Assembly (NCBI RefSeq): GCF_000020025.1
Contig: NC_010628.1
Location: 1,320,001 to 1,352,000, forward strand
Length of the DNA stretch: 32,000 bases
Reading direction: 5' to 3'
DNA from: Nostoc punctiforme PCC 73102
Lineage (GTDB): Bacteria > Cyanobacteriota > Cyanobacteriia > Cyanobacteriales > Nostocaceae
Shown: piece after piece, positions 4,759 to 18,817 of the stretch
Layout of the letters: the number at the start of each line of letters is the position of its first letter
Position numbering within the stretch: the stretch's first letter is position 1
Program-made: the position numbers and the translations under genes
Notes under the pieces: generated by a model
Told to the model about the DNA's origin: nothing
Database searches by the model: none
The model's input: only the letters and a program-made list of their open reading frames with translations

Positions 4759-6880
4759 AGGAATTTATATCATCAGGCATAGGTTGTAAAGCTACGAGAC
4801 CTACTTTACTAAGTAAACACTGACCCTGACGAGTGGTTAGCATCTGGGCAAATGTAGAACCACCAGGCAGGCGACTGGTGTCTTTAGGGTACACTACAAA
4901 AATAGGGTATCCCAAGGGGTAGCTTTGGAATGTTGTGACATCAACATAATAATCATCATGTTGACACAAATCATCTGAGGGATTAATTGAGCGGCGATCG
5001 CGCCGTTGAAACAGAGGTTGAATCGCTGATTTTTTGCCATCTGCGATCGCTAGCGGATAACCAGTACACTGGCTCGAAGTTTTACTGATAATGCCAAAGC
5101 TGATAATACCAGTGGTTCGCCCCTCTAAAGTCTCGCTGCGTATCTGGTTCTGGGTTTTTGTTGTATCTATTTTCGTATTTTTAACAGTGTCTTCAAATAA
5201 AGCTTCGTCTTGAAAGACATTTTTGAGAACTATGTCTTTAAATTTACTGATTGCTTCTGGTTCTGTTGGGGCAAAAGGTTTCACAGCTAAATTTGGAAGT
5301 TTGGGACTAATTTGTTGCCAATTGGTAATTTTACCTGTGTAAATTTGACGCAATTGCTCAAGACTTATTTGCCCTCCAAGAGCATTAGCAAGATTTGAGT
5401 CTCTCTTATTAAATGCTACAAAAACAAGTAATCCATCATAAGCAACTTGTTTTTTAGAAAGTTTATCTGTGATGTTCTCTACCAAACTAGTAATTGCAAA
5501 ATCTTTTTTGTTTGTTTCAACTTCTTCGATACTTTTAATCGGATTCTTGACGTTTGATGACAAAACAGGCTCATAGTTAAATGTTGCTGTTGCATCTGGC
5601 TTTGGTCTGGTCAATAACTCTCCTAAACGACTATTTTCTACTGATTGTGTTAAAATATAACTCCATGTACTGTCCTTTTCTCCTGTGTAAGCAAATTGTC
5701 CGGCAGGAACATTAGGGACTTCGGAGAAATTTCGCACAAGTCTAGACCATAATATATATTGATTAGGACTATCTGTTTTTTTGCCCAAAAGCCAATACAA
5801 AATTCCTCCGCCGAGTAGTAATAAAGCCAGAATTACTATCAGGATTAAAGGCATTGGTAAACGCTTTTCTATTGCTTGAGAACCTGGCGATGACACTGAA
5901 CTTTTACCACGATTTTCTTTGGGAAGTTGCAGCAGTGCTTGACGAGCCGTTTCCGCATTCTCGAAAGGAGTTTCTAGACCAATGAGGCGATAAATAAACT
6001 GCTTTAAATGGCTATCAGTATCCGGCCATTGTTGATTATCTCTAGGGTCGAGAGGCTGGTTGGATAAAAAATTAGTTGTCCGTCCTGTCCATAGATAAAA
6101 GGCTAGCAATCCTAATGATTCTAAATCTTGCTCAGGTCTGGCGGGCGCGGGTTGAGGAATAATAGGTGGAATAAATAAGTTTTCCCAGGTCGCTAAATCA
6201 CAAAAGTATATAGAGAATTTTTGATTATTTTCTAGTTTAATTAAAGTACTATCTAAACTGATATTGCCGTGAGTTATACCCAACTGTACTTGATTTGAGG
6301 GAAAACGCAGCTTTTGGGTGTGGAGAAACTGGAGAGTTTGTAAACCTTGATTTAATACTTCCCGCACATCAGGAGATGTCATCGCGCCCTTTTCTATGAG
6401 ATATTTCCCTAAAGTTTGGGATGATTCGATTCCTTGAGTGATCAGATAGCAGCGTTCTCCTTTTTCATCTGCGATCGCTTCTTTAGTTTCTACAAGACGA
6501 AAGTTTTGAATTCGACTATCGGCTAAACTTACCCCACCCACCCGTTTGAAAGTCTCTTTCCGCTTCAGAGTCTCGCTTTCATTAAAACAACGATTGGGTA
6601 GTAGGTATTCTTTGATGATGACAGGCTGTTTATCTTTAAGTTGAATCCCTGAGTATAGGCGGCCTAAACCCCGTACACCAATAAAACTAGCTATTTGATA
6701 AGTTCCCTGACTTCCTTTAATCTCAGCCTCCTGTGGTAAAGTCGCTGGAAAACCACATTCCAAGCAAAACTTAGCCCCCTTGATTTGCTGCGCGGTTTGG
6801 AAAGGGCGATCGCAACTTAAGGGAGAATTATACGAGCAGGGGTATTCTTGATAAAAAGATTCAAATGAAGGCATATACAA
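4730..6880 (-). CDS. Protein-kinase-like protein (catalytic-loop Asp replaced) with four-Cys prefix, one TM helix and a C-terminal periplasmic substrate-binding (PstS/PBP-like) domain
   Basis: CxxxxxxxxC...CLEC prefix; Gly-loop GVRGLGRLY; VIIKEY lysine motif. The catalytic loop reads THGNISLDS instead of H(R/G)DxKxxN, and CDL replaces DFG. TM helix is MPLILIVILALLLLGGGILYWLL, followed by about 340 aa of extracytoplasmic domain. Confidence 0.8.
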   Translation of the reverse strand: MYMPSFESFYQEYPCSYNSPLSCDRPFQTAQQIKGAKFCLECGFPATLPQEAEIKGSQGTYQIASFIGVRGLGRLYSGIQLKDKQPVIIKEYLLPNRCFNESETLKRKETFKRVGGVSLADSRIQNFRLVETKEAIADEKGERCYLITQGIESSQTLGKYLIEKGAMTSPDVREVLNQGLQTLQFLHTQKLRFPSNQVQLGITHGNISLDSTLIKLENNQKFSIYFCDLATWENLFIPPIIPQPAPARPEQDLESLGLLAFYLWTGRTTNFLSNQPLDPRDNQQWPDTDSHLKQFIYRLIGLETPFENAETARQALLQLPKENRGKSSVSSPGSQAIEKRLPMPLILIVILALLLLGGGILYWLLGKKTDSPNQYILWSRLVRNFSEVPNVPAGQFAYTGEKDSTWSYILTQSVENSRLGELLTRPKPDATATFNYEPVLSSNVKNPIKSIEEVETNKKDFAITSLVENITDKLSKKQVAYDGLLVFVAFNKRDSNLANALGGQISLEQLRQIYTGKITNWQQISPKLPNLAVKPFAPTEPEAISKFKDIVLKNVFQDEALFEDTVKNTKIDTTKTQNQIRSETLEGRTTGIISFGIISKTSSQCTGYPLAIADGKKSAIQPLFQRRDRRSINPSDDLCQHDDYYVDVTTFQSYPLGYPIFVVYPKDTSRLPGGSTFAQMLTTRQGQCLLSKVGLVALQPMPDDINSYACKSVPQS

Positions 6881-6917: not shown

Positions 6918-7598
6918 TCAAGCGTGAACTAATCCTAACTTGAGGGCAGCCACAATAGCTTGAGTCCGACTAGTAACCTTCAATTTTTCAAAAATACTGG
7001 TGAGATGCGCCTTAACAGTAGCAACTGTTACATATAAATGTTTAGCGATTTCTTCATTAGAAGCACCTTGAGTTAACCAGTATAAAACTTCTTGCTCTCT
7101 TTCGGTTAAATGCACCTCATGACATGCTTTCAGACAAGAGTCTGAATAAGCCTGAAAAAACCGGAAAAATCGACTAGCAACTTCTGAAGGTAAATAAATT
7201 TCCGCTCTTGTAACAGTGTCAATAGCCTCACACAATTGTGTTGCCACACGATTTTTAAACACATAACCGGCGGCTCCCGCCTGCATTGCTCTAAAAATCC
7301 AGTCGTCTTCTTGATGAGCCGACAACACTAAAACTTTGCCAGTGTAAGCAGTTTCCTTAAGACTTGCCAGAACTGTAATCCCATCACATCCCTTCAATTG
7401 CATATCCAGCAAAATTAAATCTGGACACTTCTGGGCTGTAAACTTTAAAACCTGCTCCACAGAATCTGCATCACCTATAACTTCTACAGGTAATGCAGAA
7501 TTAATACTATAAAAATTTAGGAGAGTACGTAATCCTTGGCGGAAGCGTTCTTCATCATCTACCAGCAAAACCGAAAGTTTCTTACTATCATTAGCCAT
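6918..7598 (-). CDS. Response regulator, NarL/LuxR family (REC + HTH)
   Basis: LLVDDE...DLILLDMQL receiver motifs; C-terminal LTEREQEVLYWLTQGASNEEIA...TVKAHLTSIFEKL LuxR-type HTH. Confidence 0.9.
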   Translation of the reverse strand: MANDSKKLSVLLVDDEERFRQGLRTLLNFYSINSALPVEVIGDADSVEQVLKFTAQKCPDLILLDMQLKGCDGITVLASLKETAYTGKVLVLSAHQEDDWIFRAMQAGAAGYVFKNRVATQLCEAIDTVTRAEIYLPSEVASRFFRFFQAYSDSCLKACHEVHLTEREQEVLYWLTQGASNEEIAKHLYVTVATVKAHLTSIFEKLKVTSRTQAIVAALKLGLVHA

Positions 7599-7652: not shown

Positions 7653-8795
7653 TTAATTCCCGCTCCTTGGTCGAGGCAAAATTACAGAAAATTGCGCTCC
7701 ATTTTCTGATAGGGCTTGTGCCCAGATACTTCCTTGATGATCCAAAATAATTTTCTTCGCAATAGTTAAGCCTAGTCCTGTACCTCCTTTGCGCCGGGAA
7801 TAAAATGGGGTAAATACTTTTTGTAAATCCTCTTGTGATAATCCTGGCCCTTGATCTGAAATTTTAATTAAAACTTCATCTTGAAAAACTTGCCAGCTAC
7901 AGGTAATAGTTCCTGAGTTAGGACTAAAATGGACGGCATTACTGAGGATATTATCAAATACTTGTTTCATTTGTAATTTGTCTATCTTCAGTATTGTCGA
8001 TGTATCTGGAATCAATATTTTAAGTTGTTTCTGATTAATTAGAGGCTGTAAGTTTTTGATGCTTTCATCAACTAAACTTCTTAAATCTTGAAGTTTTACC
8101 CTCAGCTTTGCACTTTGTCCACAATCAATTAGCTCATTTAAATTAGTATCTAAATCTTGTATACTTTCGCCGATGATTGTTGCTTGCTCTTGCCAAGGAC
8201 TATCCTCTAAACCTAAGCATAAGTTATGTGCATACAATCCTATAAGCCCTAGAGAGTTACGCAATTGATGGCCTATTCGATGCAAGATATCTTCCAGGAG
8301 TTGAATTTCAGTTTTTTGTCTTCCATAGTCCAAGTAAATATCTGCATACTTACTCAGCAGCATAGCAGAGCGTTTTACATATAATTGCAAGCTCTCTGAT
8401 AGAGGTTTATGAGTAATGATTTGAATGTATTCAGGTTTTTGATTCCTATAGGCAAAAGGGCAAACGTAAGAAATGGATGAAAAATCCTTAAGTTTAAATT
8501 CATGCAAAGTAAAAGCAGGCGGAAAATCTGTAAGCCATGCTTCAGAGCACAAATAAGCTAAAGTTTTTTGGGAAAAAGGAGCTTGGTCTTGACCATAATT
8601 TATAACTTCCTGATGATTTTTCAGCAAGTAATCATGATATACAATCCGAGCGAAAAAAATTGGATATTGACTAGTTAACTGTTCAGACTCTAACTGACAA
8701 TAGCTCTGAATATCTGAGGAGTTCAAATAATTCGAGCCATTCTCCAGTTTTTGTACATAAAAGCCTAGTGTCATAGCTTCACTCGCTTTTTGCAA
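7653..8795 (-). CDS. Cytoplasmic sensor histidine kinase (HisKA + HATPase_c) with an uncharacterised N-terminal domain
   Basis: H-box RIGHQLRNSL; N-box ILSNAVHFS; G-boxes DQGPGL and GGTGLGLTIAKKI. No obvious TM segments. An alternative start is Met8 (8774). Confidence 0.85.
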   Translation of the reverse strand: MQKASEAMTLGFYVQKLENGSNYLNSSDIQSYCQLESEQLTSQYPIFFARIVYHDYLLKNHQEVINYGQDQAPFSQKTLAYLCSEAWLTDFPPAFTLHEFKLKDFSSISYVCPFAYRNQKPEYIQIITHKPLSESLQLYVKRSAMLLSKYADIYLDYGRQKTEIQLLEDILHRIGHQLRNSLGLIGLYAHNLCLGLEDSPWQEQATIIGESIQDLDTNLNELIDCGQSAKLRVKLQDLRSLVDESIKNLQPLINQKQLKILIPDTSTILKIDKLQMKQVFDNILSNAVHFSPNSGTITCSWQVFQDEVLIKISDQGPGLSQEDLQKVFTPFYSRRKGGTGLGLTIAKKIILDHQGSIWAQALSENGAQFSVILPRPRSGN

Positions 8796-9182: not shown

Positions 9183-9271
9183 AAAAAATATCGACAAAAG
9201 TCTAATTAACTTTAGAAGGCTGATACATATACTGTAGATGCATCTGGATTAGCTACCAGCAGAACACCTTC

Positions 9272-10111
9272 ATGCTTATCTTCGTTCTTCAAACTTTAGC
9301 CGAAATTCTAGCTGGAGGAACCTCACTTACCAGTACAGAGCAAATTGACTTTAGCCATCCTGGTAATCGAAGGGAAGAGGGAGCAGGCCCGACTCTCAAT
9401 TTATACATTTTTGATATACGTGAGAGTAAGCAGGTACAACATTCTGGTAGGCAAGTTGAACGCAAGCTAACACGCGCTCTACAACCTGCCACTGTAAATT
9501 GGGCACCCGCTTGGTTTGATGTTTCACTGCTATTAACAGCCTGGGATAGAACAGCTTTAGGGGAGCATCACTTTATCAGTGAGGCGTTGGCTGTGCTGTT
9601 GCGCCATCGCACCTTGGAAGAGGAGTTTTTGGTTCCTGAATTACGGGGCTATGGTAATTTGAACATGACAGTTGCCCTAGAGCCGCCAATTGAAATTGGC
9701 TCTTTATGGAGCGCTCTCAATGTGCCATTGCGTTCAGCCTTATATTTGACAGTTACAATCCCCTTCGAGCCACAACCTACTCCAGTACCTTTGGTTTGGG
9801 AGCGGATTTTCAATTTGCGAAATCAATTGTCTCGTGATAGCGACAGTCTAGTATTAACCAGGCGAGTTGCGATCGCGGGTATTGTCAAAAGTGCGGTGAC
9901 AAATCTGCCACTGGTAGCGGCAGAAGTAGCTGTGAGGGGAACTGACAAGTCCATATCAACTACTAAAGAAGGACTGTTCTTTTTTGAAGACCTTCATTTA
10001 GGTAATTATGTTTTGACGCTGAATCATCCTGGCTATTTACCCCAAAACGTCAATGCATTGGTAGATAACCAAAGTAATACTTTCAAAGAAATATTTCTAA
10101 CTCCTGAATAA
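9272..10111 (+). CDS. DUF4255 (Pvc16/Afp16 N-terminal-like, tail cap/terminator) protein with a C-terminal carboxypeptidase-regulatory-like beta-sandwich
   Basis: IDFSHPG....GPTLNLYIFDIRES matches the DUF4255 signature. The C-terminus (GIVKSA..N.PL..AEVAV.GTDKS..T.KEGLFFFEDLHLGNYVLTLNHPGY) looks like a CarboxypepD_reg-type domain. Confidence 0.8.
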   Translation: MLIFVLQTLAEILAGGTSLTSTEQIDFSHPGNRREEGAGPTLNLYIFDIRESKQVQHSGRQVERKLTRALQPATVNWAPAWFDVSLLLTAWDRTALGEHHFISEALAVLLRHRTLEEEFLVPELRGYGNLNMTVALEPPIEIGSLWSALNVPLRSALYLTVTIPFEPQPTPVPLVWERIFNLRNQLSRDSDSLVLTRRVAIAGIVKSAVTNLPLVAAEVAVRGTDKSISTTKEGLFFFEDLHLGNYVLTLNHPGYLPQNVNALVDNQSNTFKEIFLTPE

Positions 10112-10141
10112 TTAGATTTTTACTGACTTGGAGAAACTTTC

Positions 10142-11803
10142 ATGGCTAGACTTGATTACTTTGCTCCTGGTGTCTACATCGAAGAAATTGACCGGGGTAG
10201 CCGACCAATTGAAGGTGTTAGCACAGCAGTTGCTGGATTTGTAGGCTTTACAGAAGATGTTCGTGGTGGGGCTGAGTTATACAAGCCCATGCTTGTGACC
10301 ACTTGGACGCAATATTTAAACTACTTTGCCCGTCCCAACTCTGACGGCTTCACCGACTTCAACGCCTATTTACCTTTTTCAGTCTACGGCTACTTTATGA
10401 ATGGTGGCGGTCGTTGCTGGGTAACAAGCATTGGGACTCAGTTACCAGGCGCACCCAGACCCGCAACTCCAGAACCGGCGACTCTCAGAATCAACTCTAG
10501 AGGTAATCGTCCAGCCCTCCGCTTTACTTTGCGTCCTGAGCAAGCATCAGGCGGATTAGTAAATCTTGTAATTATTGATGGTTCACCCCGCGCCTTACCG
10601 GAAGGTACTGAAGGAGAAGCGCCTCCAAATACAGGTGAATATTTCACCATTCAAATTCGTCGGGGAGATGAACTTTTAGAGCAATACGAAAACTTGACAA
10701 TGAACCGCGAGCCTGCTGCTCAGATAGCGACTTATGCGTTAGCAGCATTGAGAAATTCGATGTATGTCAGTGTAGAAGACATAACTCAAAGTGGACAGCC
10801 TTTAGCTCGTCGTCCCGTGAATGGTCAATATGAACTAGCGCCACCCATTGTTGCCGCCCCACCCGATAGATTTTCACAGAATTTAGAAGGGGTTCGAGAC
10901 GATCGCACCGGAGTACGCGGTATCTTTGAAGTTGATGAAATCACAATGCTGGCTTGTCCTGATGTGATGCGGGCTTATCAAGAGCAGATACTGAATTTAG
11001 ATCAAGTCCACGGCATCATCGAACTGATGATTAGTATGTGCGAGGGTTCTGCCAGTGGCGATATTCCCAACCCCCCCAACCGCATGGTTGTACTTGATGC
11101 GCCACCGGATGCCGTCAAACCCCAGCAAGTAGTGGAGTGGCTGAATAGATTTAACCGTCGTTCGATGTTTGCGGCCCTTTATTATCCTTGGATTAAAGTA
11201 CCTAATCCACGCGATCGCGGTAATCCAATTTTAGTACCTCCTTGTGGTCATGTGATGGGTGTTTGGGCCCGCACTGACGAAACCAGAGGAGTTTACAAAG
11301 CCCCTGCAAATGAAGTTCCCAGAGGCGTAATTGGTTTGGGCTATGAAACAAACTTCCGCGAACAAGAACTATTAAACCCCTTGGGGATAAATTGTATTCG
11401 CAGCTTCCCCAACCGAGGTATCCGCATTTGGGGCGCACGCACACTAGTTGAGCCAGATAAAACAGAGTGGCGTTACATTAGTGTGCGTCGGTTAATTAGC
11501 TATATCGAAAAATCCCTAGAATTAGGGACTCAATGGGTAGTTTTTGAACCGAACGACCAAGATTTATGGGCACGTGTCACCCGCACCGTTAGTAATTTCT
11601 TAGAGCGTATCTGGCGTGAAGGTGCTTTATTTGGGGCATCTCCAGCACAAGCATTCTACGTGAAGTGTGACGAAGAATTGAACCCACCAGAAACCAGAAT
11701 TTTAGGACGTTTATATATTGAAGTCGGTGTTTGCCCAGTCAGACCAGCTGAATTTGTTGTATTCCGCATCAGCCAATGGAATGGCATTGAAGATAGCGAA
11801 TAG
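10142..11803 (+). CDS. Contractile tail sheath protein (CIS sheath)
   Basis: N-terminus MARLDYFAPGVYIEEIDRGSRPIEGVSTAVAGFVGFTE and C-terminal block YKAPANE...GINCIR.F.NRGIRIWGARTL are classic phage-sheath motifs. A GGAGA sequence lies 8 nt upstream. Confidence 0.95.
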   Translation: MARLDYFAPGVYIEEIDRGSRPIEGVSTAVAGFVGFTEDVRGGAELYKPMLVTTWTQYLNYFARPNSDGFTDFNAYLPFSVYGYFMNGGGRCWVTSIGTQLPGAPRPATPEPATLRINSRGNRPALRFTLRPEQASGGLVNLVIIDGSPRALPEGTEGEAPPNTGEYFTIQIRRGDELLEQYENLTMNREPAAQIATYALAALRNSMYVSVEDITQSGQPLARRPVNGQYELAPPIVAAPPDRFSQNLEGVRDDRTGVRGIFEVDEITMLACPDVMRAYQEQILNLDQVHGIIELMISMCEGSASGDIPNPPNRMVVLDAPPDAVKPQQVVEWLNRFNRRSMFAALYYPWIKVPNPRDRGNPILVPPCGHVMGVWARTDETRGVYKAPANEVPRGVIGLGYETNFREQELLNPLGINCIRSFPNRGIRIWGARTLVEPDKTEWRYISVRRLISYIEKSLELGTQWVVFEPNDQDLWARVTRTVSNFLERIWREGALFGASPAQAFYVKCDEELNPPETRILGRLYIEVGVCPVRPAEFVVFRISQWNGIEDSE

Positions 11804-11806
11804 GAT

Positions 11807-11909
11807 ATTGGGAATTGGAAATTGGGAATTGAGGAAACAATTCTTGTAACTCCTAACTCCCATTCCCCATTCCCCGTTCGCCATTTCCCATTCCCCATTC
11901 CCAATTCTC
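11807..11909. repeat. Inverted STRR-type heptamer arrays (GGGAATT-like arm facing CCCCATT-like arm)
   Basis: Left arm ATTGGGAATTGGAAATTGGGAATTGAGG (11807-11834); right arm CTCCCATTCCCCATTCCCC...CCCATTCCCAATTCTC (11857-11909). Located in the sheath-tube spacer. Confidence 0.8.
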
Positions 11910-11940
11910 AAATTAATCACACACAAAGGAGTCCAAAAGT

Positions 11941-12396
11941 ATGGCAGGCGAATTTTTAACCTCTTGTAAATTTTACTTTGAGGCTGACGGCATTACTGAT
12001 AAATTCATCAAAGAAATTAGTGGCTTAGGCGTTGAGAATACTCCAGCGCAAGAAGTCCACGGTTCATCTAAAGGCGCTAAACTAATGCGTCAAGCTACAC
12101 CAACTGTTGTTAAATTTACCAACATCACAGTAAAAGTCATCGCCACTGATGATATAGACCTTTATAAATGGTATCAAGATTGTAACGAAGACATGGGAGA
12201 CCCTCGGAAGTGGTCACAGAAGCGTAAAACTGGTTCAGTGGTTGCTTATGACCAACAAGGCTCTGAAAAAGCACGCTGGAACATTGTCAATTGTTATCCT
12301 TGTAAATACACTGGCCCTACCTTAACTGCCTCTGGTGGTGATATGGCAAATGAAACAGTTGAATTGGTTCACGAAGGAATTAAACGAATCAAATAA
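11941..12396 (+). CDS. Tail tube protein, T4 gp19-like (CIS tube, paralog 1)
   Basis: FYFEADG....FKEISGLG.E......HG...G......PT.VKF.NITVK......DLYKWY, then W.I.NCYPCKY.GP.L.A......E.VELVHEG. AAGGAG SD at 11926-11931. Confidence 0.9.
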   Translation: MAGEFLTSCKFYFEADGITDKFIKEISGLGVENTPAQEVHGSSKGAKLMRQATPTVVKFTNITVKVIATDDIDLYKWYQDCNEDMGDPRKWSQKRKTGSVVAYDQQGSEKARWNIVNCYPCKYTGPTLTASGGDMANETVELVHEGIKRIK

Positions 12397-12405
12397 TCGT
12401 AATTA

Positions 12406-12560
12406 CGTAAAGCCTGCGGCATAGCTTTGCTTAGAGCGTAGCGGTAGCAAGTCCGCAAGCTTCATTACGAATTACGTTAGCGCAGCGTAAAGCCTGCGGC
12501 ATGGCTTCGCTTAGAGCGACGCAGGAGCGTCATTACGAATTACGAATTACGAATTATTTA
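12406..12560. repeat. Duplicated small dispersed repeat (CGTAAAGCCTGCGGCATRGCTTYGCTTAGAGCG) plus AATTACG heptamer run
   Basis: Copies at 12406-12444 and 12486-12525. ATTACGA heptamers at about 12465-12476 and 12531-12556. Confidence 0.75.
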
Positions 12561-13058
12561 ACAGTGGTACAATCCGCAAGCCGAATTCCAGAAGTTCTTA
12601 CGGCCCATCGGTTCTATTTAGAACTGACACTAGAAGGTCAAAACGATGCCAATTGCTTTTTTTTGGAGTGTCAAGGCTTCAAAAGAACACAAGAGGTAAT
12701 TGAAATTTCTGAAGTTACTTCTCAAACCTGGGGTAAAAAAGGGCAATCAAAAGGCCAGGTGGTGAGAACTAAGCTTCCTAGCAATCCTAAGAGTGGTAAT
12801 CTCACTCTGCGTAGAGGTACTACCAACTCTATGGATTTTTGGAAGTGGTTTGAAAAAGTTGAAAAAGGTAATTGGTCTGAGCAACGTAGACTTGTTGCTT
12901 TGTCTATTTATAATCAGGCAAATCAAGAAATAGCTAGATTTGAATTAGCCGGTGCTTGGCCTGCAAGTTACAAAATTGCCGATGTTAACGCCCGCAGCCA
13001 TGACATCGAAATTGAGGAAGTGGAGGTTGCTTTTGAGGAATTTAAACGTGTGAAGTAA
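12501..13058 (+). CDS. Tail tube protein, gp19-like (CIS tube, paralog 2); true start probably GTG 12564
   Basis: RFYLELTLEG....FLECQGF....EVIEI......, then LAGAWPASYKI.D......IEIEEVEVAFEEF. The first 21 codons of the listed ORF lie inside the dispersed repeat, so the in-frame GTG at 12564 is more plausible. Confidence 0.85.
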   Translation: MASLRATQERHYELRITNYLTVVQSASRIPEVLTAHRFYLELTLEGQNDANCFFLECQGFKRTQEVIEISEVTSQTWGKKGQSKGQVVRTKLPSNPKSGNLTLRRGTTNSMDFWKWFEKVEKGNWSEQRRLVALSIYNQANQEIARFELAGAWPASYKIADVNARSHDIEIEEVEVAFEEFKRVK

Positions 13059-13069
13059 TTAGGAGAAGT

Positions 13070-13417
13070 ATGTTTCCCACAGAGTTTGAATTTACACTGC
13101 CAAAGGGGTATCTAGACTCTGAAGGCAACCTCCACCGCAAAGGTGTAATGCGGTTATCAACGGCAATAGACGAGATTGCACCCTTGCGTGACCCACGCGT
13201 TAAAGCTAATCCTGTTTATGCCACAATTATTATCTTGTCACGAGTGATTACTCACTTGGGTGCTTTATCAGAAGTTACTCCTGCAATAGTAGAAAACTTT
13301 TTTGCCCAAGATTTAAATTATCTCCAAGATTTTTATCGGCGAATTAATGGCTTGGAAGGTGAAACTTCCATACCAGAAGATACAATAAACTCCCCCGAAG
13401 CACTTATTCATAATTGA
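13070..13417 (+). CDS. Small conserved CIS-associated protein, tail-assembly-chaperone-like (paralog A)
   Basis: 115 aa. AGGAG SD lies upstream. Clear paralog of 13694-14077 (EFxFTLPxG..DSE...HR.GVMRL.TA.DEI......RV..NP.Y......L.RVIT.LG.L..V.P.......L..D..YL..FY.RIN). Confidence 0.75.
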   Translation: MFPTEFEFTLPKGYLDSEGNLHRKGVMRLSTAIDEIAPLRDPRVKANPVYATIIILSRVITHLGALSEVTPAIVENFFAQDLNYLQDFYRRINGLEGETSIPEDTINSPEALIHN

Positions 13418-13418
13418 A

Positions 13419-13690
13419 TTGGACATGGGGCATTGGGTATGGGCGTGGGGAGCAGAAAGCAAAGACTCATTAACGGAGTTCAAAGCTTCATTAACGGAGT
13501 TTAAAGACTCATTAACGGAGTTCAAAGACTCATTAACGGAGTTCAAAGCCTCATTAATGGAGTTCAAAGCCTCATTAATGGAGTTCAAAGCCTCATTAAT
13601 GGAGTTCAAAGCCTCATTAATGGAGTTCAAAGACTCATCCCCTATTCTCAATGCCCCATGCCCCATGCCCAATCCCCAATTCCCAAATGA
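13419..13690. repeat. Composite repeat: 8 full copies plus one partial copy of a 21-nt tandem unit (AAAGMCTCATTAAYGGAGTTC), flanked by inverted G-rich/C-rich heptamer arms
   Basis: Units at 13461-13628, period 21; the first four are the AACGG type and the last four the AATGG type. Left arm ATGGGGCATTGGGTATGGGCGTGGGG; right arm ATGCCCCATGCCCCATGCCCAATCCCCAATTCCC. Confidence 0.85.
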
Positions 13691-13693
13691 CTT

Positions 13694-14077
13694 ATGCCCC
13701 GTAAAAAGGATACTCTCTCCACAGAATTTGCCTTCACTCTTCCTAGAGGATTGAGTGATAGTGAACACCGAATACATCGTCATGGGGTGATGCGTTTAGC
13801 CACCGCTAAAGATGAAATTTTGGTGCAACAAGAGCGCAGAGTTCAGGAAAATCCAGCTTATGGTGTTTTGGTGATGCTTGCACGGGTTATTACTCGCTTG
13901 GGCAGTCTTAATTCTGTTAGCCCTGATTTACTCGAAGAACTTCTTTTACATGACATTGCCTATCTTCGAGAATTTTATAATCGAATCAATCAGCAAGGCG
14001 ATGTACATATTCCTACACAATGTCCCCATTGTAATACCCAATTTTCAGTGGAGCTAGAACTAGCGGGGGAGTCGTAA
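13694..14077 (+). CDS. Small conserved CIS-associated protein, tail-assembly-chaperone-like (paralog B) with C-terminal CPHC motif
   Basis: 127 aa, paralog of 13070-13417. Stop TAA at 14075-14077, immediately after a G5 run. Confidence 0.75.
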   Translation: MPRKKDTLSTEFAFTLPRGLSDSEHRIHRHGVMRLATAKDEILVQQERRVQENPAYGVLVMLARVITRLGSLNSVSPDLLEELLLHDIAYLREFYNRINQQGDVHIPTQCPHCNTQFSVELELAGES

Positions 14078-14223
14078 GCTACCCCTCCGATACTTTATAT
14101 GAGGAGGTAGCTTTTATTGCTTATCATTTCCACTGGTCACAAGATGATATTTTAAATTTAGAACATACTACCCGTCAGCGCTGGGTGGCAGAAATCAATA
14201 AAATTAACCAAAAATTAATATGA
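14035..14223 (+). CDS. Start-less conserved-looking reading frame (DUF6760-like), probably expressed as a -1 frameshift extension of 13694-14077
   Basis: 62 sense codons (YPIFSGARTSGGVVSYPSDTLYEEVAFIAYHFHWSQDDILNLEHTTRQRWVAEINKINQKLI). There is no ATG, GTG or TTG until 12 codons from the end. It is in the -1 frame relative to paralog B and overlaps it at 14035-14074. Its TGA overlaps the next gene's ATG (ATGA at 14220-14223). Confidence 0.5.
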   Translation, partial: YPIFSGARTSGGVVSYPSDTLYEEVAFIAYHFHWSQDDILNLEHTTRQRWVAEINKINQKLI

Positions 14224-16214
14224 AAGTAAAAGTTAGCTATTCACCAAATCTAAGTGAAGTCAATGAAGTTGACCTGACCACAGAAACTCCAACGAGAGGA
14301 GAATGGTTAATAGGTCGTTCTCCTGATTCTGATTTAGTCTTAGACAGTCCTGATATTAGTCGGGTACATGCTAAGTTTTTTGTTAAAGCTGGAAATTACT
14401 ACTTCTCTGACCTTGGCAGTAGAAATGGCTCAATATTTAATGGAAAACAAGCCGAAAAAGATCGACCATATTCTTTGAGTGATGGAGATATTATCAGGAT
14501 TGCAGATTACGTTCTGATCTTAGAAGCAGTTGCTCCCGCTTATGAGCAACCAGAGACAGTCTTTAGAATTATAGACCCTTCACTGTTTTCTCGGCCGCGA
14601 TCGCCTGAAAATGTCAGCGCAGCCAATGTCGTTAATCCATCCCCAGAAGTAGTTAGCGAAGTTCCAGCGCCTATTACTCCCGAAGTAGAAACACCTTCTC
14701 CAGAAGTCAGCGAAACCTCCGAAGTTGTTGCTAATCAACCCGATGATGTCATTCCGGTTGTTGAGGTAATCGCCCCTGAAAACATTATTCAGTCACCAGA
14801 AGCAGTTAGCGAAGTTCCACACGATGTCCATGATGAAATTGTGGATTTGCAATCAGTTGCGCCAGAAGTCAGTGCAGATGTTGAAGAAGTAGAGATTCCA
14901 GAAGTTAGCGAAAATGATGAGGAAGTTTCTTTTACTGTAGCCGAAGCTGCGATCGCAGCACCTGAAAATATCATCGAAACTTCTGAAGAGGAAATTACAC
15001 TTCCAGAAGTCACTCATGATGAGGTTACAGACTTCGAAACAGCACTGGCGACAGAATCTACTTTCGTGCAACGGCGTGATACAAGTAGTATTCCCCAAGC
15101 TACTGACCATGAAGATGCAGAGTTTGAGGCAGCACTAGAAGCAGAAGTTACCTTCGTACAGCCACGTGATATTTTCCACCAAGTTCCTGCAACCTCTCCT
15201 GAAGATGCAGAGTTAGAGGCGGCGCTGGAAGCAGAAGTCACCTTCGTGCAGCCGCGTGATATTTTCGGCGAAGTATCTAATGAAGAAAGTACTGTTCTGG
15301 AAGTTACTCATAATGAAAATGAAGTAGTAGATTTAGATACACCAGTCGCAGAAGAAGTCGGTTTAGAGTTTGGCGAATTTGTCAACGAAGTTACTGAAGA
15401 AGAGGAAATTCAGCCGCAAGAAACATTGAGCCAAGATACACAAGATATCAATGATGAACTAGCAGATTTAGATATTTTATTTACGGCAGAAGAAAGCGTA
15501 GATATTGACGAAGTAGAACCTAGTTTTGCTGTTGATGAAACAGGAGGTGAAGTTTCTGAAGCATTGACTGAGCCTGATAATATCGTTGTAGAAGTTTCTA
15601 GCAATCAATACATTGATTTGAATAATACAAATACAGAAGAAGCCAGCGTAAATGTTGATGATGTTGTTCTAGTAAGTGAAGTTGCTGAATTAGCTGATAT
15701 TCAATCTTTAGAAACAACAAAAAGCGAAGTTCCTGAGAGTATCAGTCAAACTATTGAAGAGGTTACTGAAGTAGAAGCGACTCAATTTGATGAAACTCCA
15801 GAAGAAATAAATGTAAGTGAGCCTCCCCAAGTGATTATTGAAAGAAACATAGTACTTATCGCTCACGAGAGCAAGAAATCAGAACTTGCTGAATTTGTTT
15901 CTCAACATCAGGAATTTTTCTCACAGAGCTTTACAATTACCTGGCCATCTGTTGGCGAAGTCTTACATCAACAAGCAGGAATAACAATTAGTCAGCAAAC
16001 CCCCGCACCAATTTCTGGAGGATATCAAACAATTGCTTCATTGGTTGGAGCAGGAGAAATTTTAGCAGTTATTTTCCTGAGAGATTTGCTGCAACCTCAG
16101 CCTGGTCAGGCAAATGAAGAAGCTCTGCTCAGATTATGCACTATTAATCAAGTTTTACTGGCAACTAATTTGCCAACAGCAGAAGCGATCGTGCATTATC
16201 TTAAACATATATAG
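14220..16214 (+). CDS. FHA domain / long acidic repeat region / methylglyoxal-synthase-like (MGS-like) domain protein
   Basis: N-terminal FHA (WLIGRSPDSDLVLDSPDISRVHAKF......YYFSDLGSRNGS..NG). About 400 aa are E/V/P/S-rich with PEV(S/V)E motifs and three 30-aa repeats. The C-terminus aligns by eye to MgsA (IVLIAHESKK...SGGYQTIASLVGAGEILAVIF..D......A.EEALLRLC.IN.V.LATN..TA). Confidence 0.85.
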   Translation: MKVKVSYSPNLSEVNEVDLTTETPTRGEWLIGRSPDSDLVLDSPDISRVHAKFFVKAGNYYFSDLGSRNGSIFNGKQAEKDRPYSLSDGDIIRIADYVLILEAVAPAYEQPETVFRIIDPSLFSRPRSPENVSAANVVNPSPEVVSEVPAPITPEVETPSPEVSETSEVVANQPDDVIPVVEVIAPENIIQSPEAVSEVPHDVHDEIVDLQSVAPEVSADVEEVEIPEVSENDEEVSFTVAEAAIAAPENIIETSEEEITLPEVTHDEVTDFETALATESTFVQRRDTSSIPQATDHEDAEFEAALEAEVTFVQPRDIFHQVPATSPEDAELEAALEAEVTFVQPRDIFGEVSNEESTVLEVTHNENEVVDLDTPVAEEVGLEFGEFVNEVTEEEEIQPQETLSQDTQDINDELADLDILFTAEESVDIDEVEPSFAVDETGGEVSEALTEPDNIVVEVSSNQYIDLNNTNTEEASVNVDDVVLVSEVAELADIQSLETTKSEVPESISQTIEEVTEVEATQFDETPEEINVSEPPQVIIERNIVLIAHESKKSELAEFVSQHQEFFSQSFTITWPSVGEVLHQQAGITISQQTPAPISGGYQTIASLVGAGEILAVIFLRDLLQPQPGQANEEALLRLCTINQVLLATNLPTAEAIVHYLKHI

Positions 16215-16636: not shown

Positions 16637-18817
16637 ATGGTTACAAACTTAAAAAGTTTATTTAGACAGCCAGTTATTCTTTCAAGTGCGATCGCTACAA
16701 TTTTACTACTAGGCATTCAAAAACTTGGGGTTTTCGAACCTCTAGAAATGAAGGTCTACGACCAAATGATGCAATTACGTGGCGACCCAGGCCCAGACTC
16801 TCGTCTATTAATTGTTGCTTTAACTGAAAAAGATATTCAAAAATGGAATTGGCCCCTATCTGGCGAACTTCTAGAGCGACTATTGGGCAAACTTGAAGCT
16901 TATGAACCGCGAGCCATTGGTCTAGATATTTTCCGTGACTTACCTGTACAACCTGGTCATGAAAAACTACTGCAACGCTTACAACAGAGCGATATCATCA
17001 TTCCTATCTGTAAACATTCTGGTTCTAACAATCCGGGAATAGCAGCCCCAAAGGGGATTGAAGCAGAGCGAGTAGGATTTAATGATGTAGTAGAAGATAC
17101 TGACGCGACAATTCGTCGCAACCTATTATTGGTAAGTGCAGAAGAGTCCGATTCCTGTCAAAGTACTTATTCTTTTAGCTTGCAATTAGCACTTAAATAC
17201 TTAGAAGTTGGAGGTATCCAGCTAAAATTTACCCCCAAAAAAGAACTACAACTACGAGATACTGTATTTAAACCCCTACAAAGCAACGCTGGCGGTTATC
17301 AGAAAGCGGATACAAATGGATACCAAATTTTGCTTAACTACCATTCTGGTCATCAGATTGCCCAGAAAGTAACTATTACAGAAATACTTGAAAATCAAGT
17401 TAAACCAGATTTGGTGAAAGACCGCATCGTTTTAATTGGTTCAACAGCCAATAGTTTAAATGATATTTTTAACACGCCATTTGCTACTGGTAAGTCAGAT
17501 AATTCCGGGAAAATGGCAGGAATTGAAATTCATGCCCATAGCGTTAGTCAAATTCTCAGTGCTGTTCTTAACAAACAGCCATTATTTTGGTTTCTACCTG
17601 AATGGGGGAAAGTCCTGTGGATATGGGGATGGACTGTAGTTGGTGGGTTGCTGGTATCGCGGATTCAACATCCACTAGGCTTAGGACTGGCAGGAGCAAC
17701 AGCCCTTGCAGTCTTATTTGGAAGCAATTTTGTCATTTTTACCCAAGCTGGATGGTTCCCTGTAATACCTCCGACTTTGGGGTTAGTATTTACCGCCGGG
17801 AGTGTTCTTGCTTATAGTGCTTATAAAACGAAACAAGAGCAACAAGAAATTACCCAACGGGTTCAAGAACACCAACAATTAATTGTGGAATTGCAAGGTC
17901 TTTTACGGCAGCGCGGCGATGCCTCAAATGAAGCACCAACTGTAATTGCTGATTCCATCGGGCAAGAAATTTCATTAGGAACTCTACTAAACAATCGCTA
18001 CAAAATTACTCAAGGCTTGGGTTCTGGAGGATTTAGCAATACTTATTTAGCTGATGATATCCAGCGTCCTGGTAATCCGCAGTGTGTGGTTAAACAGTTG
18101 CGTCCCCCCCGCCAAGATGCAGAATATTTAAATGTCGTCAGACGATTATTTGACGCTGAAGCACAAATTTTAGAAACCTTGGGTAAGCATCCACAAATCC
18201 CTCAACTGCTAGCTTTTTTTGAAGAAAATCGGCAATTTTCTCTAGTGCAAGAATTTGTTCGAGGGCACGCTATGGACAAAGAAGTAACCTCAGGAAAGCG
18301 ACTAAAACAAGCTGAAGTTGTGGAAATGCTTAAAGAAGTTTTACACGTACTTGTTTTTGTTCACAGCTATGGTGTAATCCATCGAGATATCAAACCTAGT
18401 AACTTGATTAGACGAGAATCAGATCAACACATTGTTTTAATTGACTTTGGCGCTGTTAAGCAAATTCATCCTCAGCAGCAAGAAGCTCAGACTATTTCAA
18501 TTGGTACGCCTGGTTATGCACCTTCTGAGCAAATGAGCGGTTTGCCAAAACTCAACAGCGATATTTATGCGTTGGGAATTATGGGAATTCAAGGTTTAAC
18601 TGGGGTAGATCCTAGAGAATTTCGCAGAGATATAAATACTGGTGAAATAATTATTCAAGGTGAAGCTGATGGCAATCAACAGACTTGGCAACATTGGCGC
18701 GAACTAACTGACGCTACAAACGAGTTAGTTATTATTTTAAATAGAATGGCGCATTTCGATTTTACTCAACGATATCAGTCAGCAGCAGAGGTTCTCAAAG
18801 CTCTCGAAAGTCCTTAG
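16637..18817 (+). CDS. CHASE2 sensor domain / TM / Ser-Thr protein kinase
   Basis: CHASE2-like N-terminus (LLIVALTEKDI..W.WPL.........L....PRAIGLDIFRD), TM helices around aa 320-395. Intact kinase motifs: GSGGFSNTY, VVKQL, HRDIKPSNL, DFGAVK, GTPGYAPSEQ. Confidence 0.9.
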   Translation: MVTNLKSLFRQPVILSSAIATILLLGIQKLGVFEPLEMKVYDQMMQLRGDPGPDSRLLIVALTEKDIQKWNWPLSGELLERLLGKLEAYEPRAIGLDIFRDLPVQPGHEKLLQRLQQSDIIIPICKHSGSNNPGIAAPKGIEAERVGFNDVVEDTDATIRRNLLLVSAEESDSCQSTYSFSLQLALKYLEVGGIQLKFTPKKELQLRDTVFKPLQSNAGGYQKADTNGYQILLNYHSGHQIAQKVTITEILENQVKPDLVKDRIVLIGSTANSLNDIFNTPFATGKSDNSGKMAGIEIHAHSVSQILSAVLNKQPLFWFLPEWGKVLWIWGWTVVGGLLVSRIQHPLGLGLAGATALAVLFGSNFVIFTQAGWFPVIPPTLGLVFTAGSVLAYSAYKTKQEQQEITQRVQEHQQLIVELQGLLRQRGDASNEAPTVIADSIGQEISLGTLLNNRYKITQGLGSGGFSNTYLADDIQRPGNPQCVVKQLRPPRQDAEYLNVVRRLFDAEAQILETLGKHPQIPQLLAFFEENRQFSLVQEFVRGHAMDKEVTSGKRLKQAEVVEMLKEVLHVLVFVHSYGVIHRDIKPSNLIRRESDQHIVLIDFGAVKQIHPQQQEAQTISIGTPGYAPSEQMSGLPKLNSDIYALGIMGIQGLTGVDPREFRRDINTGEIIIQGEADGNQQTWQHWRELTDATNELVIILNRMAHFDFTQRYQSAAEVLKALESP

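What the first reader, a model, noticed from the sequence alone, without database searches (positions are those of the whole stretch)
9272..14223. CIS sheath/tube/cap module with no baseplate, spike or ATPase genes nearby
A DUF4255 cap-like gene, a sheath gene, two gp19-like tube genes and two small chaperone-like genes are co-directional and tightly spaced. In Afp/PVC/eCIS-type loci these are normally followed by a LysM tube initiator, VgrG-like spike, gp25/gp6/gp7-like wedge genes, a tape measure and an AAA+ ATPase. None of those is recognisable in the 9 kb upstream or 18 kb downstream. Signalling genes occupy the expected position instead. Either the particle is built from split loci, or this is a reduced sheath-tube assembly used differently. 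CIS (including a thylakoid-anchored type) are known in multicellular cyanobacteria, so the family itself is not new. The truncated, signalling-embedded layout is the unusual part.
Basis: partly seen in the sequence, partly recalled or inferred. Interest (0 to 1): 0.65.

Follow-up and report, generated by a model that had tools for sequence, protein, structure and literature searches.

The report
Nostoc injection-system operon cut by window
The cap, sheath, tube and chaperone genes are real, but they are one half of a complete phage-tail-like injection system; the baseplate and spike half almost certainly lies just past the window's left edge, and the two halves flank conserved signalling genes.

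Summary
**Observation: confirmed.** Window 9272-14223 encodes:
- a Pvc16_N cap
- a sheath
- two gp19 tube proteins
- two tail-assembly-chaperone paralogues
- a DUF6760 reading frame

**Interpretation ("no baseplate, spike or ATPase nearby"): mostly a window-edge effect.**
- About 30 related cyanobacterial loci share one layout. A divergent operon (Cis5, tape-measure candidate, Cis7, VgrG, PAAR, gp25, baseplate J, P2-I, Cis13-like) lies directly beyond the DUF4157 effector genes.
- The window begins inside such an effector gene. The baseplate operon is therefore predicted about 1 kb or more to the left.

**Lineage.** The system is the Streptomyces-type "class IId" lineage. It is not the Anabaena thylakoid-anchored type.

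**What is unusual.**
- Nostocales split the ancestral single cluster into two divergent operons.
- One operon is led by a histidine kinase, a NarL-type regulator, a receptor pseudokinase and an FHA gene.
- The other ends in a translationally coupled FHA/MGS-fold gene, followed by a CHASE2 Ser/Thr kinase.
- No AAA+ ATPase lies in the locus. In other Nostocales a separate cap2+ATPase module exists.

**Noticed in passing.** DUF6760 appears to be made by a conserved -1 frameshift from the chaperone gene. All 17 junctions examined carry the G-run slip site. I found no paper describing this.

The parts
1..1395 (+). 3' part of DUF4157/eCIS_core effector gene 1, cut by the window edge
   Evidence: No stop codon from base 1 to 1395. 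Logan contig L008 extends the gene to at least 686 aa. Its N-terminal 220 aa, including the HELTH motif, are 97% identical to the gene at 2487-3899.
1542..2308 (-). XisI and XisH pair inserted between the two effector genes
   Evidence: Pfam XisI E 2e-44 and XisH E 9e-53. L013, L014 and L016 have the same insertion.
2487..3899 (+). DUF4157/eCIS_core effector gene 2
   Evidence: PF13699 E 1.6e-33.
4114..4758 (-). FHA-domain protein (214 aa), last gene of the signalling cassette
   Evidence: FHA E 2.7e-12. Weak TagH-type hit. Overlaps the upstream gene by 29 nt.
4730..6880 (-). Receptor pseudokinase: Zn-ribbon, kinase fold (HRD is HGN, DFG is DLA), hydrophobic helix, PstS-like domain
   Evidence: PBP_like_2. 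hhalign of orthologues against true kinases gives 97.3% probability, E 2e-11, over 246 columns. The Brasilonema homologue is annotated as a Ser/Thr kinase.
6918..7598 (-). NarL/LuxR-type response regulator
   Evidence: Response_reg plus GerE. NarL and MadR-type hits.
7653..8795 (-). Histidine kinase, first gene of the leftward cassette
   Evidence: HATPase_c E 7e-25. Many histidine-kinase family hits.
9191..9233 (+). Conserved promoter-proximal block TCGACAAAAGTCTAATTAAC, overlapping a -35-like TTAACT and followed by a -10-like TATACT
   Evidence: It is the only block conserved from Nostoc to Calothrix and Cyanomargarita in the HK-cap intergenic region. Promoter-like hit at 9206-9233. Coordinates.
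9272..10111 (+). Cap / tail terminator (Cis16-like) with a C-terminal CarboxypepD_reg domain
   Evidence: Streptomyces cap 9gts, E 6e-15.
10142..11803 (+). Sheath (Cis2)
   Evidence: 8bky and 8bl4 at E 1e-120, full length. 0 aa changes against 42-56 nt changes versus relatives.
11941..12396 (+). Inner tube protein (Cis1a)
   Evidence: gp19 E 1e-33 and TIGR02241. PDB CIS tube matches.
12501..13058 (+). Second tube paralogue (Cis1b). Relatives call the start at the position equivalent to 12564
   Evidence: gp19 E 3e-28. Called as 164 aa in relatives.
13070..13417 (+). Tail assembly chaperone paralogue (115 aa, with no Zn-ribbon or extension)
   Evidence: phrog_508 E 4e-5. 56-71% identical to the single chaperone of non-cyanobacterial clusters.
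13460..13638 (.). 21-nt x 8.5 tandem repeat between the two chaperone genes. It creates spurious ORFs on both strands
   Evidence: ORFs 13419-13754 (+) and 13313-13783 (-) consist of heptad repeats.
13694..14077 (+). Tail assembly chaperone (127 aa, C-terminal CxxC...CxxC Zn-ribbon)
   Evidence: phrog_508 E 2.5e-7. NCBI names the family 'phage tail assembly protein'.
14063..14112 (+). Predicted -1 frameshift site GCG_GGG_GAG (14063-14071) and a downstream hairpin (14077-14112)
14065..14223 (+). DUF6760 extension in the -1 frame. No ATG, GTG or TTG start is available. Its stop overlaps the FHA start (ATGA)
   Evidence: PF20546 E 1.4e-16. Frame analysis.
14220..16214 (+). FHA protein with an acidic linker and a non-catalytic methylglyoxal-synthase-fold C-terminal domain
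   Evidence: The same gene position is conserved in at least 6 genera.
16637..18817 (+). CHASE2 sensor fused to a Hanks-type Ser/Thr kinase (HRD intact)
   Evidence: CHASE2 E 3e-70 and Pkinase E 3e-35. Conserved in this position in Nostoc relatives. A CHASE2 protein lies near the Brasilonema locus.

Best explanation
**What it is**
- Window 9272-14223 is the sheath operon of a complete contractile injection system (CIS) in a Nostoc genome. The system belongs to the Streptomyces-type (dbeCIS class IId) lineage.
- The operon encodes cap, sheath, two tube paralogues and two tail-assembly chaperones.

**Where the rest is**
- A second operon encodes the Cis6-like plug, Cis5, tape-measure candidate, Cis7, VgrG, PAAR, gp25, baseplate J, P2-I and a Cis13-like DUF4159 protein.
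- It is inferred to start about 1 kb, and at most a few kb, left of the window, and to be transcribed away from it.

**What lies between the two operons**
- DUF4157 effector genes.
- A four-gene cassette: histidine kinase, NarL-type regulator, receptor pseudokinase and FHA protein. In relatives without effector insertions this cassette directly heads the baseplate operon.

**How the sheath operon ends**
- It ends in a translationally coupled FHA/MGS-fold gene, followed by a CHASE2 Ser/Thr kinase.

**Shown**
- Gene identities, synteny, lineage and purifying selection.

**Inferred**
- The two-component system sets transcription from the divergent promoter region.
- Ser/Thr phosphorylation read by the two FHA proteins gates assembly or firing. 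This is analogous to the PpkA/Fha1 (TagH) pathway of type VI secretion.
- The machine acts inside the cell or on lysis, as in Streptomyces and Anabaena.
For: **Gene identities:**

**Divergent baseplate operon in relatives**
- L002 and L003.
- 80 loci retrieved with Cis5. About 30 of them show HK, RR, pseudokinase and FHA in the same order and orientation, out to Tolypothrix, Calothrix and Cyanomargarita.
- Operon content.
- The same layout is contiguous on Brasilonema plasmid pBOCT2.

**The window starts inside a DUF4157 effector gene:**

**Ancestral layout is one contiguous cluster**
- Non-cyanobacterial relatives.
- Kovacikia.
- Streptomyces.

**Lineage:** sheath versus 8bky and 8bl4 at E 1e-120, and 42% identity over 98-99% of the query with Streptomyces plasmid sheaths. 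Class IId has been noted in filamentous cyanobacteria (PMC10020575).

**FHA gene fused to the operon end by an ATGA overlap:** Nostoc, Chamaesiphon, Nodularia, Brasilonema and two other lineages.

**Kinase fold of the PstS-like protein:**

**Purifying selection:**
Against: - The DNA left of the window was not seen for this strain beyond 666 nt. Adjacency therefore rests on synteny.
- Adjacency is not universal. In Nodularia the sheath operon has housekeeping genes upstream. In N. linckia NIES-25 a chaperone homologue is on the chromosome while a baseplate operon is on a plasmid.
- No AAA+ ATPase is in the locus, although eCIS regions are said to encode one invariably.
- No PP2C phosphatase is present.
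- The kinase next to the FHA gene differs between genera.
- No experiment links the signalling genes to the CIS.
Confidence: 0.8

Rival explanations
1. The module is a stand-alone, reduced sheath-tube device that works without a baseplate or spike.
For: - No baseplate genes lie in the 32-kb window.
- Nodularia has the sheath operon away from a baseplate operon.
Against: - Every syntenic Nostoc relative has the full baseplate and spike operon beyond the effector genes.
- The window is cut inside such an effector gene.
- Tail assembly chaperones imply a tape measure, which is encoded in the other operon.
Confidence: 0.03
2. The genes are a prophage tail or tailocin remnant, not a CIS. That would explain the missing ATPase and the phage-like chaperone frameshift.
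For: - No AAA+ ATPase in the locus.
- Chaperone, frameshift extension and long tape-measure candidate are phage hallmarks.
- A survey paper treats absence of Cis15 as a phage or tailocin trait.
Against: - A Pvc16_N cap and DUF4157 effectors are present.
- The sheath matches Streptomyces CIS sheaths over its full length.
- No capsid, lysis or integration genes are present.
- A cap2+ATPase module accompanies the same system in other Nostocales.
- Selection is strongly purifying.
Confidence: 0.05
3. The signalling genes are only neighbours. The CIS is regulated by other means and the FHA and kinase genes serve unrelated pathways.
For: - Kinase types next to the locus differ between genera.
- No PP2C phosphatase is present.
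- Non-cyanobacterial and Kovacikia clusters have no FHA gene at the junction.
Against: - The FHA gene overlaps the last structural reading frame (ATGA) in at least 6 genera.
- HK, RR, pseudokinase and FHA keep the same order at the head of the baseplate operon in about 30 loci.
- A pseudokinase homologue also sits by the Kovacikia cluster.
- Another FHA gene sits next to the ATPase in L180.
Confidence: 0.2
4. DUF6760 is a separate small protein, started by reinitiation or a non-canonical codon. It is not a frameshift product.
For: - Streptomyces has a GTG at the GTGA overlap.
- Annotators call it as a separate gene in some genomes.
- The cyanobacterial site A_GCG_GGG is not a canonical X_XXY_YYZ heptamer.
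Against: - 9 of 17 junctions have no ATG, GTG or TTG before the conserved peptide. Other candidate starts are not conserved.
- Conservation in the -1 frame begins exactly at the G-run.
- The G-run is absent only where DUF6760 is absent.
- A covarying hairpin lies about 7 nt downstream.
Confidence: 0.25

Closest known systems
Streptomyces cytoplasmic CIS (CIS-Sc / CIS-Sv; dbeCIS class IId)
   Same: - The sheath aligns over its full length (E 1e-120; 42% identity).
- Both have a cap, two tube paralogues, a chaperone plus DUF6760 junction with the same G-run, and a long tape-measure candidate.
- Both encode Cis5, Cis7, VgrG, gp25, baseplate J and P2-I.
- A response regulator lies next to the cluster.
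- The host is a filamentous organism.
   Different: - Streptomyces keeps one direction of transcription, with cap plus AAA+ ATPase together.
- Here the cluster is split into two divergent operons with embedded HK, RR, pseudokinase and FHA genes.
- An FHA/MGS-fold gene is coupled to the sheath operon.
- The effectors are DUF4157 proteins instead of Sco4256-58.
- No ATPase lies in the locus.
Anabaena PCC 7120 thylakoid-anchored CIS (all3313-all3327)
   Same: - The host is a multicellular cyanobacterium.
- DUF4157 proteins are encoded alongside.
- The gene order starts with the cap.
   Different: - Sheath similarity is confined to the C-terminal domain (E 6e-53).
- The Anabaena cluster is a single contiguous operon.
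- The P2-I/Cis12 homologue here is 343 aa and lacks the long anchoring extension.
Type VI secretion threonine-phosphorylation pathway (PpkA, PppA, Fha1/TagH)
   Same: - FHA proteins and membrane receptor-type Hanks kinases are encoded with a contractile sheath machine.
- Both FHA domains give weak TagH-type hits.
   Different: - This is a different CIS class.
- No PP2C phosphatase is present.
- One kinase is a predicted pseudokinase.
- No phosphorylation has been shown.
Phage tail assembly chaperones made by -1 frameshift (lambda gpG/gpGT, P2 gpE/E+E')
   Same: - In the ancestral layout the gene lies between the tube and tape-measure genes.
- A -1 overlapping reading frame follows.
- A slip site lies just before the stop codon.
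- Both chaperone paralogues (13070-13417 and 13694-14077) match a phage chaperone family (PHROG 508).
   Different: - The slip site is a G-run. It is canonical in only some lineages.
- The extension is DUF6760.
- The frameshift product has not been shown experimentally.
Afp / PVC extracellular CIS
   Same: The core part list is shared: sheath, tube, cap, spike, gp25, gp6-like and gp7-like proteins.
   Different: - The gene order differs.
- Afp and PVC have a locus-encoded Afp15-type ATPase, tail fibres and one operon.
- No frameshifted chaperone has been described for them.

Membership tests
Contractile injection system (eCIS / Afp-PVC superfamily) | Contractile sheath and gp19-type inner tube | tested here: met
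Contractile injection system (eCIS / Afp-PVC superfamily) | Pvc16_N (DUF4255) tail terminator | tested here: met
   PF14065 E 2e-19. Streptomyces cap 9gts.
Contractile injection system (eCIS / Afp-PVC superfamily) | Baseplate (gp25, baseplate J, P2-I) and VgrG/PAAR spike in the same locus | tested here: inconclusive
   Absent from the window. Present just beyond the effector genes in all syntenic relatives. This strain's own left flank was not retrievable.
Contractile injection system (eCIS / Afp-PVC superfamily) | Locus-encoded AAA+ ATPase (Cis15) | tested here: not met
   - None in the window.
- None in the baseplate operon and its flank in L093, nor within +-20 kb in Brasilonema.
- A cap2+ATPase module exists elsewhere in other Nostocales.
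- Indirect evidence suggests the two closest complete genomes lack it.
Contractile injection system (eCIS / Afp-PVC superfamily) | Associated DUF4157 (eCIS_core) effector-type genes | tested here: met
Class IId / Streptomyces-type CIS | Sheath closest to Streptomyces CIS sheaths over its full length | tested here: met
   8bky and 8bl4 at E 1e-120. 42% identity over 98-99% of the query.
Class IId / Streptomyces-type CIS | Cytoplasmic, non-released particles that mediate cell death | not testable with these tools
   Requires cryo-ET and mutants.
Thylakoid-anchored CIS (Anabaena type) | Sheath orthologous to All3325, Cis12 extension, Cis13 membrane anchor, Cis19 crown | tested here: not met
   - The sheath matches All3325 only in the C-terminal domain.
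- The P2-I homologue is 343 aa.
- The Cis13-like protein carries DUF4159.
- Cis19 was not searched for.
T6SS-type threonine phosphorylation pathway | FHA scaffold plus Hanks-type kinase encoded with the machine | tested here: met
T6SS-type threonine phosphorylation pathway | Cognate PP2C phosphatase | tested here: not met
   The Pfam scans of the window's larger ORFs gave no PP2C hit.
T6SS-type threonine phosphorylation pathway | Phosphorylation-dependent assembly or firing | not testable with these tools
   Requires phosphoproteomics and mutants.
Frameshifted tail assembly chaperone (G/GT type) | Chaperone homologue between the tube and tape-measure genes, with an overlapping -1 frame and a slip site before the stop | tested here: met
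   - PHROG 508.
- Ancestral gene order.
- All 17 junctions carry the G-run. The -1 frame relation was shown for 16 of them; the script left L157 unresolved, but one search gives -1 for it.
- Hairpin.
Frameshifted tail assembly chaperone (G/GT type) | Detected fusion protein | not testable with these tools
   Requires mass spectrometry or a reporter assay.

The most novel reading that the evidence does not exclude
- Nostocales have rewired a Streptomyces-type CIS so that assembly or firing is gated by a dedicated Ser/Thr-phosphorylation and FHA pathway.
- That pathway has two membrane receptor kinases, one of them a PstS-linked pseudokinase, and two FHA proteins. One FHA protein carries a possibly hexamer-forming MGS fold that could match the six-fold machine.
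- In this Nostoc clade the system works without the supposedly invariable AAA+ ATPase.
- Separately, all class IId systems make a G/GT-like frameshifted chaperone. That would identify the 'missing' tape measure of the Streptomyces systems.
Probability: 0.3. Interest if true: 0.7.

Novelty: new variant of a known kind. Interest (0 to 1): 0.45.

Why it matters
**The open question.** What triggers cytoplasmic CISs in Streptomyces and Anabaena to assemble or fire under stress is unknown.

**What this locus offers.**
- It ties a CIS of that lineage to named sensors: a CHASE2 kinase, a PstS-like receptor pseudokinase and a two-component system. It also ties it to phospho-threonine readers.
- These give concrete genes to delete and binding partners to test.

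**The frameshifted chaperone, if confirmed.**
- It would extend a hallmark of phage tail assembly to a CIS class.
- It would give DUF6760 a role.
- It would point to the long ORF after it as the tape measure that the Streptomyces papers report as absent.

**The ATPase-free arrangement.** It bears on what the conserved ATPase is needed for.

Tried and rejected
**Getting this strain's left flank**
- The left-edge ORF and the effector protein are not on record.
- XisH is found only on Logan contigs of 3.3 kb or less. These extend at most 666 nt past the edge.

**Other records**
- AP018223.1 is not in the plasmid collection.
- The metagenome scan did not return the 98%-identical JGI contig.

**Sequence scans**
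- Promoter and terminator scans were not above shuffled expectation: 28 against 21 promoter-like sites, and 11 against 9 terminator-like sites.
- The HK-cap intergenic region is mostly unalignable between genera, apart from one block.
- Rfam and tRNA scans found nothing.

**The PstS-like protein**
- BLASTP against the true kinase was not significant.
- NCBIfam and Pfam showed no kinase.
- Only the profile-profile comparison was conclusive.

**Ideas dropped**
- P0001 (175 aa) is not a natural chaperone-DUF6760 fusion. Its extra length is N-terminal.
- The linker motif T[FI]VQP[RQ]D in the FHA protein is only partly conserved and was not pursued.

**Literature**
- Most literature searches timed out.
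- Prior description of the frameshift or of the FHA link therefore cannot be excluded.

Full report
**1. Observation**

- Pfam and NCBIfam give Pvc16_N plus a CarboxypepD_reg domain for 9272-10111, the two phage sheath domains for 10142-11803, and T4 gp19 for 11941-12396 and 12501-13058.
- The two small proteins (13070-13417 and 13694-14077) are paralogues. Both match PHROG 508, tail assembly chaperone. NCBI names their family "phage tail assembly protein".
- The reading frame that ends at 14223 is DUF6760.
- Selection is strongly purifying. The sheath differs from relatives at 42-56 nucleotides and at no amino acid.
- The rest of the window has no baseplate, spike or AAA+ gene.
One is at 2487-3899. 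The other runs off the left edge (1-1395 has no stop). A Logan contig extends that gene to at least 686 aa. Its N-terminus is 97% identical to the gene at 2487-3899.

**2. Where the missing parts are**

The window is from a Nostoc. Relatives at 95-99% DNA identity carry the same genes in the same order.
- In L002 and L003 a third gp19 gene, a 79-aa gene and a roughly 1100-aa gene lie just beyond the effector gene on the opposite strand.
- Using that third tube protein as a probe returned 80 loci.
- In these loci the operon reads: 79-aa protein, Cis5-like tube adaptor, 1112-1119-aa protein (weak tape-measure hit only), CIS_tube/Cis7, VgrG-related protein, PAAR, small protein, gp25, baseplate J, P2-I-like protein, and a DUF4159 protein with a weak Cis13-family N-terminus. 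Housekeeping genes follow.
- In window orientation the conserved order is: baseplate operon (-), one to four DUF4157 genes (+, with or without XisHI), FHA/pseudokinase/RR/HK (-), then the cap-sheath operon (+).
- The signalling cassette is visible in about 30 loci, out to Tolypothrix, Calothrix and Cyanomargarita. The layout is contiguous on the annotated Brasilonema plasmid pBOCT2.
- L013, L014 and L016 share the window's XisHI insertion.
- Given the length of the cut effector gene, the baseplate operon is predicted to begin about 1 kb left of base 1. It would be further if this strain has extra effector copies.
- This is inference from synteny. I could not retrieve this strain's own flank.

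**3. Lineage and evolution of the layout**

- The sheath aligns over its full length with Streptomyces CIS sheaths 8bky and 8bl4 (E about 1e-120). It matches the Anabaena thylakoid-anchored sheath All3325 only in the C-terminal domain (6e-53). It is 42% identical to sheaths on Streptomyces megaplasmids.
- Vladimirov et al. place the Streptomyces systems in dbeCIS class IId and note class IId regions in filamentous cyanobacteria (PMC10020575). The family is therefore known.
- Non-cyanobacterial relatives at about 40% identity, Kovacikia (Leptolyngbyales) and S. clavuligerus all carry the system as one co-directional cluster: cap or cap2, sheath, tube(s), chaperone, DUF6760, small protein, Cis5, long ORF, Cis7, VgrG, gp25, baseplate J, P2-I.
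- Nostocales and Chamaesiphon carry a break exactly between DUF6760 and the 79-aa/Cis5 genes.
- On one side of the break, an FHA gene of 590-770 aa is joined to the last structural frame, in most genera by an ATGA overlap. This holds in Nostoc, Chamaesiphon, Nodularia, Brasilonema and two further lineages.
- On the other side, HK, RR, pseudokinase and FHA214 run co-directionally straight into the 79-aa/Cis5 genes wherever no effector gene is inserted (L174, L041, L082, L085, L090, L092, L177).
- The arrangement is not fixed. Nodularia has housekeeping genes upstream of the sheath operon. In N. linckia NIES-25 a chaperone homologue is chromosomal while a baseplate operon is on a 1.8-Mb plasmid.

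**4. The signalling genes**

- The 716-aa protein at 4730-6880 had only a PstS-like domain by Pfam.
- A profile of its orthologues matches a profile of true Ser/Thr kinases at 97.3% probability (E 2e-11, 246 columns). HRD is replaced by HGN, and DFG by DLA.
- With its four-Cys N-terminus and a hydrophobic helix before the PstS-like domain, it reads as a receptor pseudokinase. The FHA214 gene overlaps its 3' end.
- The FHA protein at 14220-16214 has three parts: a conserved FHA domain, a variable acidic linker and a conserved C-terminal methylglyoxal-synthase fold. In that fold the catalytic motifs are lost (GGDQQ to GGYQT, PHEPD to PGQAN). Which residues are catalytic rests on my knowledge of E. 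coli MgsA.
- Methylglyoxal synthase is a hexamer. A hexameric FHA scaffold would match a six-fold machine. This is speculation.
- The CHASE2 kinase at 16637-18817 keeps HRD. It follows after a 423-nt gap and probably has its own promoter.
- The only conserved block in the divergent HK-cap intergenic region is TCGACAAAAGTCTAATTAAC (9191-9210). It abuts a -35/-10-like pair, which makes it a candidate site for the NarL-type regulator.
- The resemblance to the type VI PpkA/Fha1 pathway is an analogy. No PP2C phosphatase is present, and nothing has been shown experimentally.

**5. The ATPase**

- eCIS regions are said to encode an AAA+ ATPase invariably.
- S. clavuligerus has DUF4255 followed by the ATPase. 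Kovacikia and Pseudanabaena also have an ATPase near the cluster.
- In Nostocales a second, shorter DUF4255 family (about 210-224 aa) lies directly beside a 668-670-aa WHD+AAA ATPase. This module sits in different places in different genomes (L180, L181).
- It is not in the window. It is not after DUF4159 in L093, and none is annotated within +-20 kb in Brasilonema.
- In the top-120 lists for cap2 and for the ATPase, no cluster's longest contig matches the two closest complete genomes. This hints that the window's clade lacks the module. It is indirect evidence only.

**6. Frameshifted chaperone (found in passing)**

- In the window, the DUF6760 frame is open from 14035 to the TGA at 14221-14223. 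It has no ATG, GTG or TTG. The ATG at 14020 is followed by a TAA.
- The frame is -1 relative to the chaperone gene and overlaps its end.
- I examined 17 junctions, from four cyanobacterial orders, Streptomyces and unidentified phyla. All 17 carry a run of 5-8 G, ending 5-8 nt before the chaperone stop wherever that stop was located.
- DUF6760 is in the -1 frame in every junction resolved. Two rows show "+1"; this is a script quirk, and established -1 for those loci.
- The conserved -1-frame peptide (GG[VI]x[SG]YP...EEVA[FY][IL]AY[HY][FL]HW) begins exactly at the run.
- 9 of the 17 have no standard start codon before that peptide. Other candidate starts are not conserved. Only Streptomyces has a start at the overlap.
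- Some sites are canonical heptamers (C_CCG_GGG, G_GGG_GGN). The cyanobacterial A_GCG_GGG is not.
- The two loci without DUF6760 also lack the G-run.
- About 112 of 120 cyanobacterial homologues end in Gly-Glu(-x).
- A hairpin about 7 nt downstream (window 14077-14112) is 97.5% paired across 11 sequences, against at most 56% in slid controls. Its closing pair covaries (GC in 6, AU in 5), and the 3' change is a synonymous Ala codon. Coding constraint on both arms confounds this result.
- In the ancestral layout the pair sits between the tube gene and a long ORF. In S. clavuligerus that ORF is unannotated and 1073 aa. This is the phage tube, G/GT, tape-measure order.
- Casu et al. report no typical tape measure in the Streptomyces clusters and do not mention a chaperone (PMC10066040).
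- No paper in the library mentions DUF6760. A 2025 CIS survey mentions no chaperone, frameshift, FHA or kinase. No relevant paper pairs eCIS with an FHA domain. Many literature queries failed, so priority cannot be assured.

**7. Verdict**

- The central interpretation, a truncated module lacking a baseplate, is largely an effect of where the window was cut.
- The system is a member of a catalogued CIS class. It carries a lineage-specific rearrangement that embeds and appends signalling genes, and it has no ATPase in the locus.
- I rate it a new variant of a known kind, of moderate interest.
- The most promising leads are the phospho-signalling link and the frameshifted chaperone.

Noticed in passing
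window 14063-14223 (slip site 14063-14071, hairpin 14077-14112): DUF6760 appears to be a -1 frameshift extension of the tail assembly chaperone. All 17 junctions, from cyanobacteria, Streptomyces and other phyla, have a run of 5-8 G just before the chaperone stop, with the conserved -1-frame peptide starting at the run. 9 of 17 have no start codon. A covarying hairpin follows.
   Followed up: yes
window 4730-6880 (-): The protein annotated only as PstS-like has a full Ser/Thr kinase fold at its N-terminus, with HRD changed to HGN. It also has a 4-Cys ribbon and a hydrophobic helix. This is a receptor pseudokinase, and an FHA gene overlaps its end.
   Followed up: yes
window 15801-16211 (+): The C-terminal domain of the FHA protein is a methylglyoxal-synthase fold with the catalytic motifs lost. 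Because MGS is a hexamer, it might oligomerise the FHA protein six-fold.
   Followed up: partly
L180:8048-10922 and L181:10001-12684: A second, shorter DUF4255 (cap2) gene lies directly beside a 668-670-aa WHD+AAA ATPase. This third CIS module sits in different places in different Nostocales genomes. It is absent from the window, and the window's closest complete genomes may lack it.
   Followed up: partly
window 1-1395 and 2487-3899: Two DUF4157 effector genes share a 97% identical N-terminal 220 aa but have unrelated C-terminal domains, with an XisH/XisI pair between them. Relatives have one to four such genes. This looks like a cassette-type effector array.
   Followed up: partly
window 9191-9233: A 20-nt block, TCGACAAAAGTCTAATTAAC, directly upstream of the cap gene's promoter-like hexamers is conserved from Nostoc to Calothrix and Cyanomargarita. 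The rest of the intergenic region is not conserved.
   Followed up: partly
window 13460-13638; also 11859-11907, 12532-12556, 31798-31839: A 21-nt x 8.5 tandem repeat between the two chaperone genes produces long spurious ORFs on both strands. Nostoc-type heptamer repeats (CCCATTC x7 and others) fill other intergenic gaps of the operon.
   Followed up: partly
L172, L174, L175, L180: A recurring accessory set lies beside the sheath operon or the cap2+ATPase module in several genera: a Pkinase-DUF8082 kinase, a HAMP/Tll0287-like protein, a 730-750-aa protein with no known domain, and a 730-750-aa WD40 protein. It is not in this window.
   Followed up: no
L070 (N. linckia NIES-25 plasmid1) versus P0010 (chromosome): In NIES-25 a baseplate operon is on the 1.78-Mb plasmid, while a chaperone homologue is on the 6.45-Mb chromosome. 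The two operons may be on different replicons, or there may be two systems.
   Followed up: no
L178:22780-25999: An unannotated 1073-aa ORF directly follows the chaperone/DUF6760 pair in S. clavuligerus. It is a candidate for the tape measure that the Streptomyces CIS papers describe as missing.
   Followed up: partly
window 28036-29370 (-): A 444-aa ORF with no family hit contains 84-nt x 2.7 and 48-nt x 2.3 tandem repeats (28330-28552 and 28116-28221).
   Followed up: no
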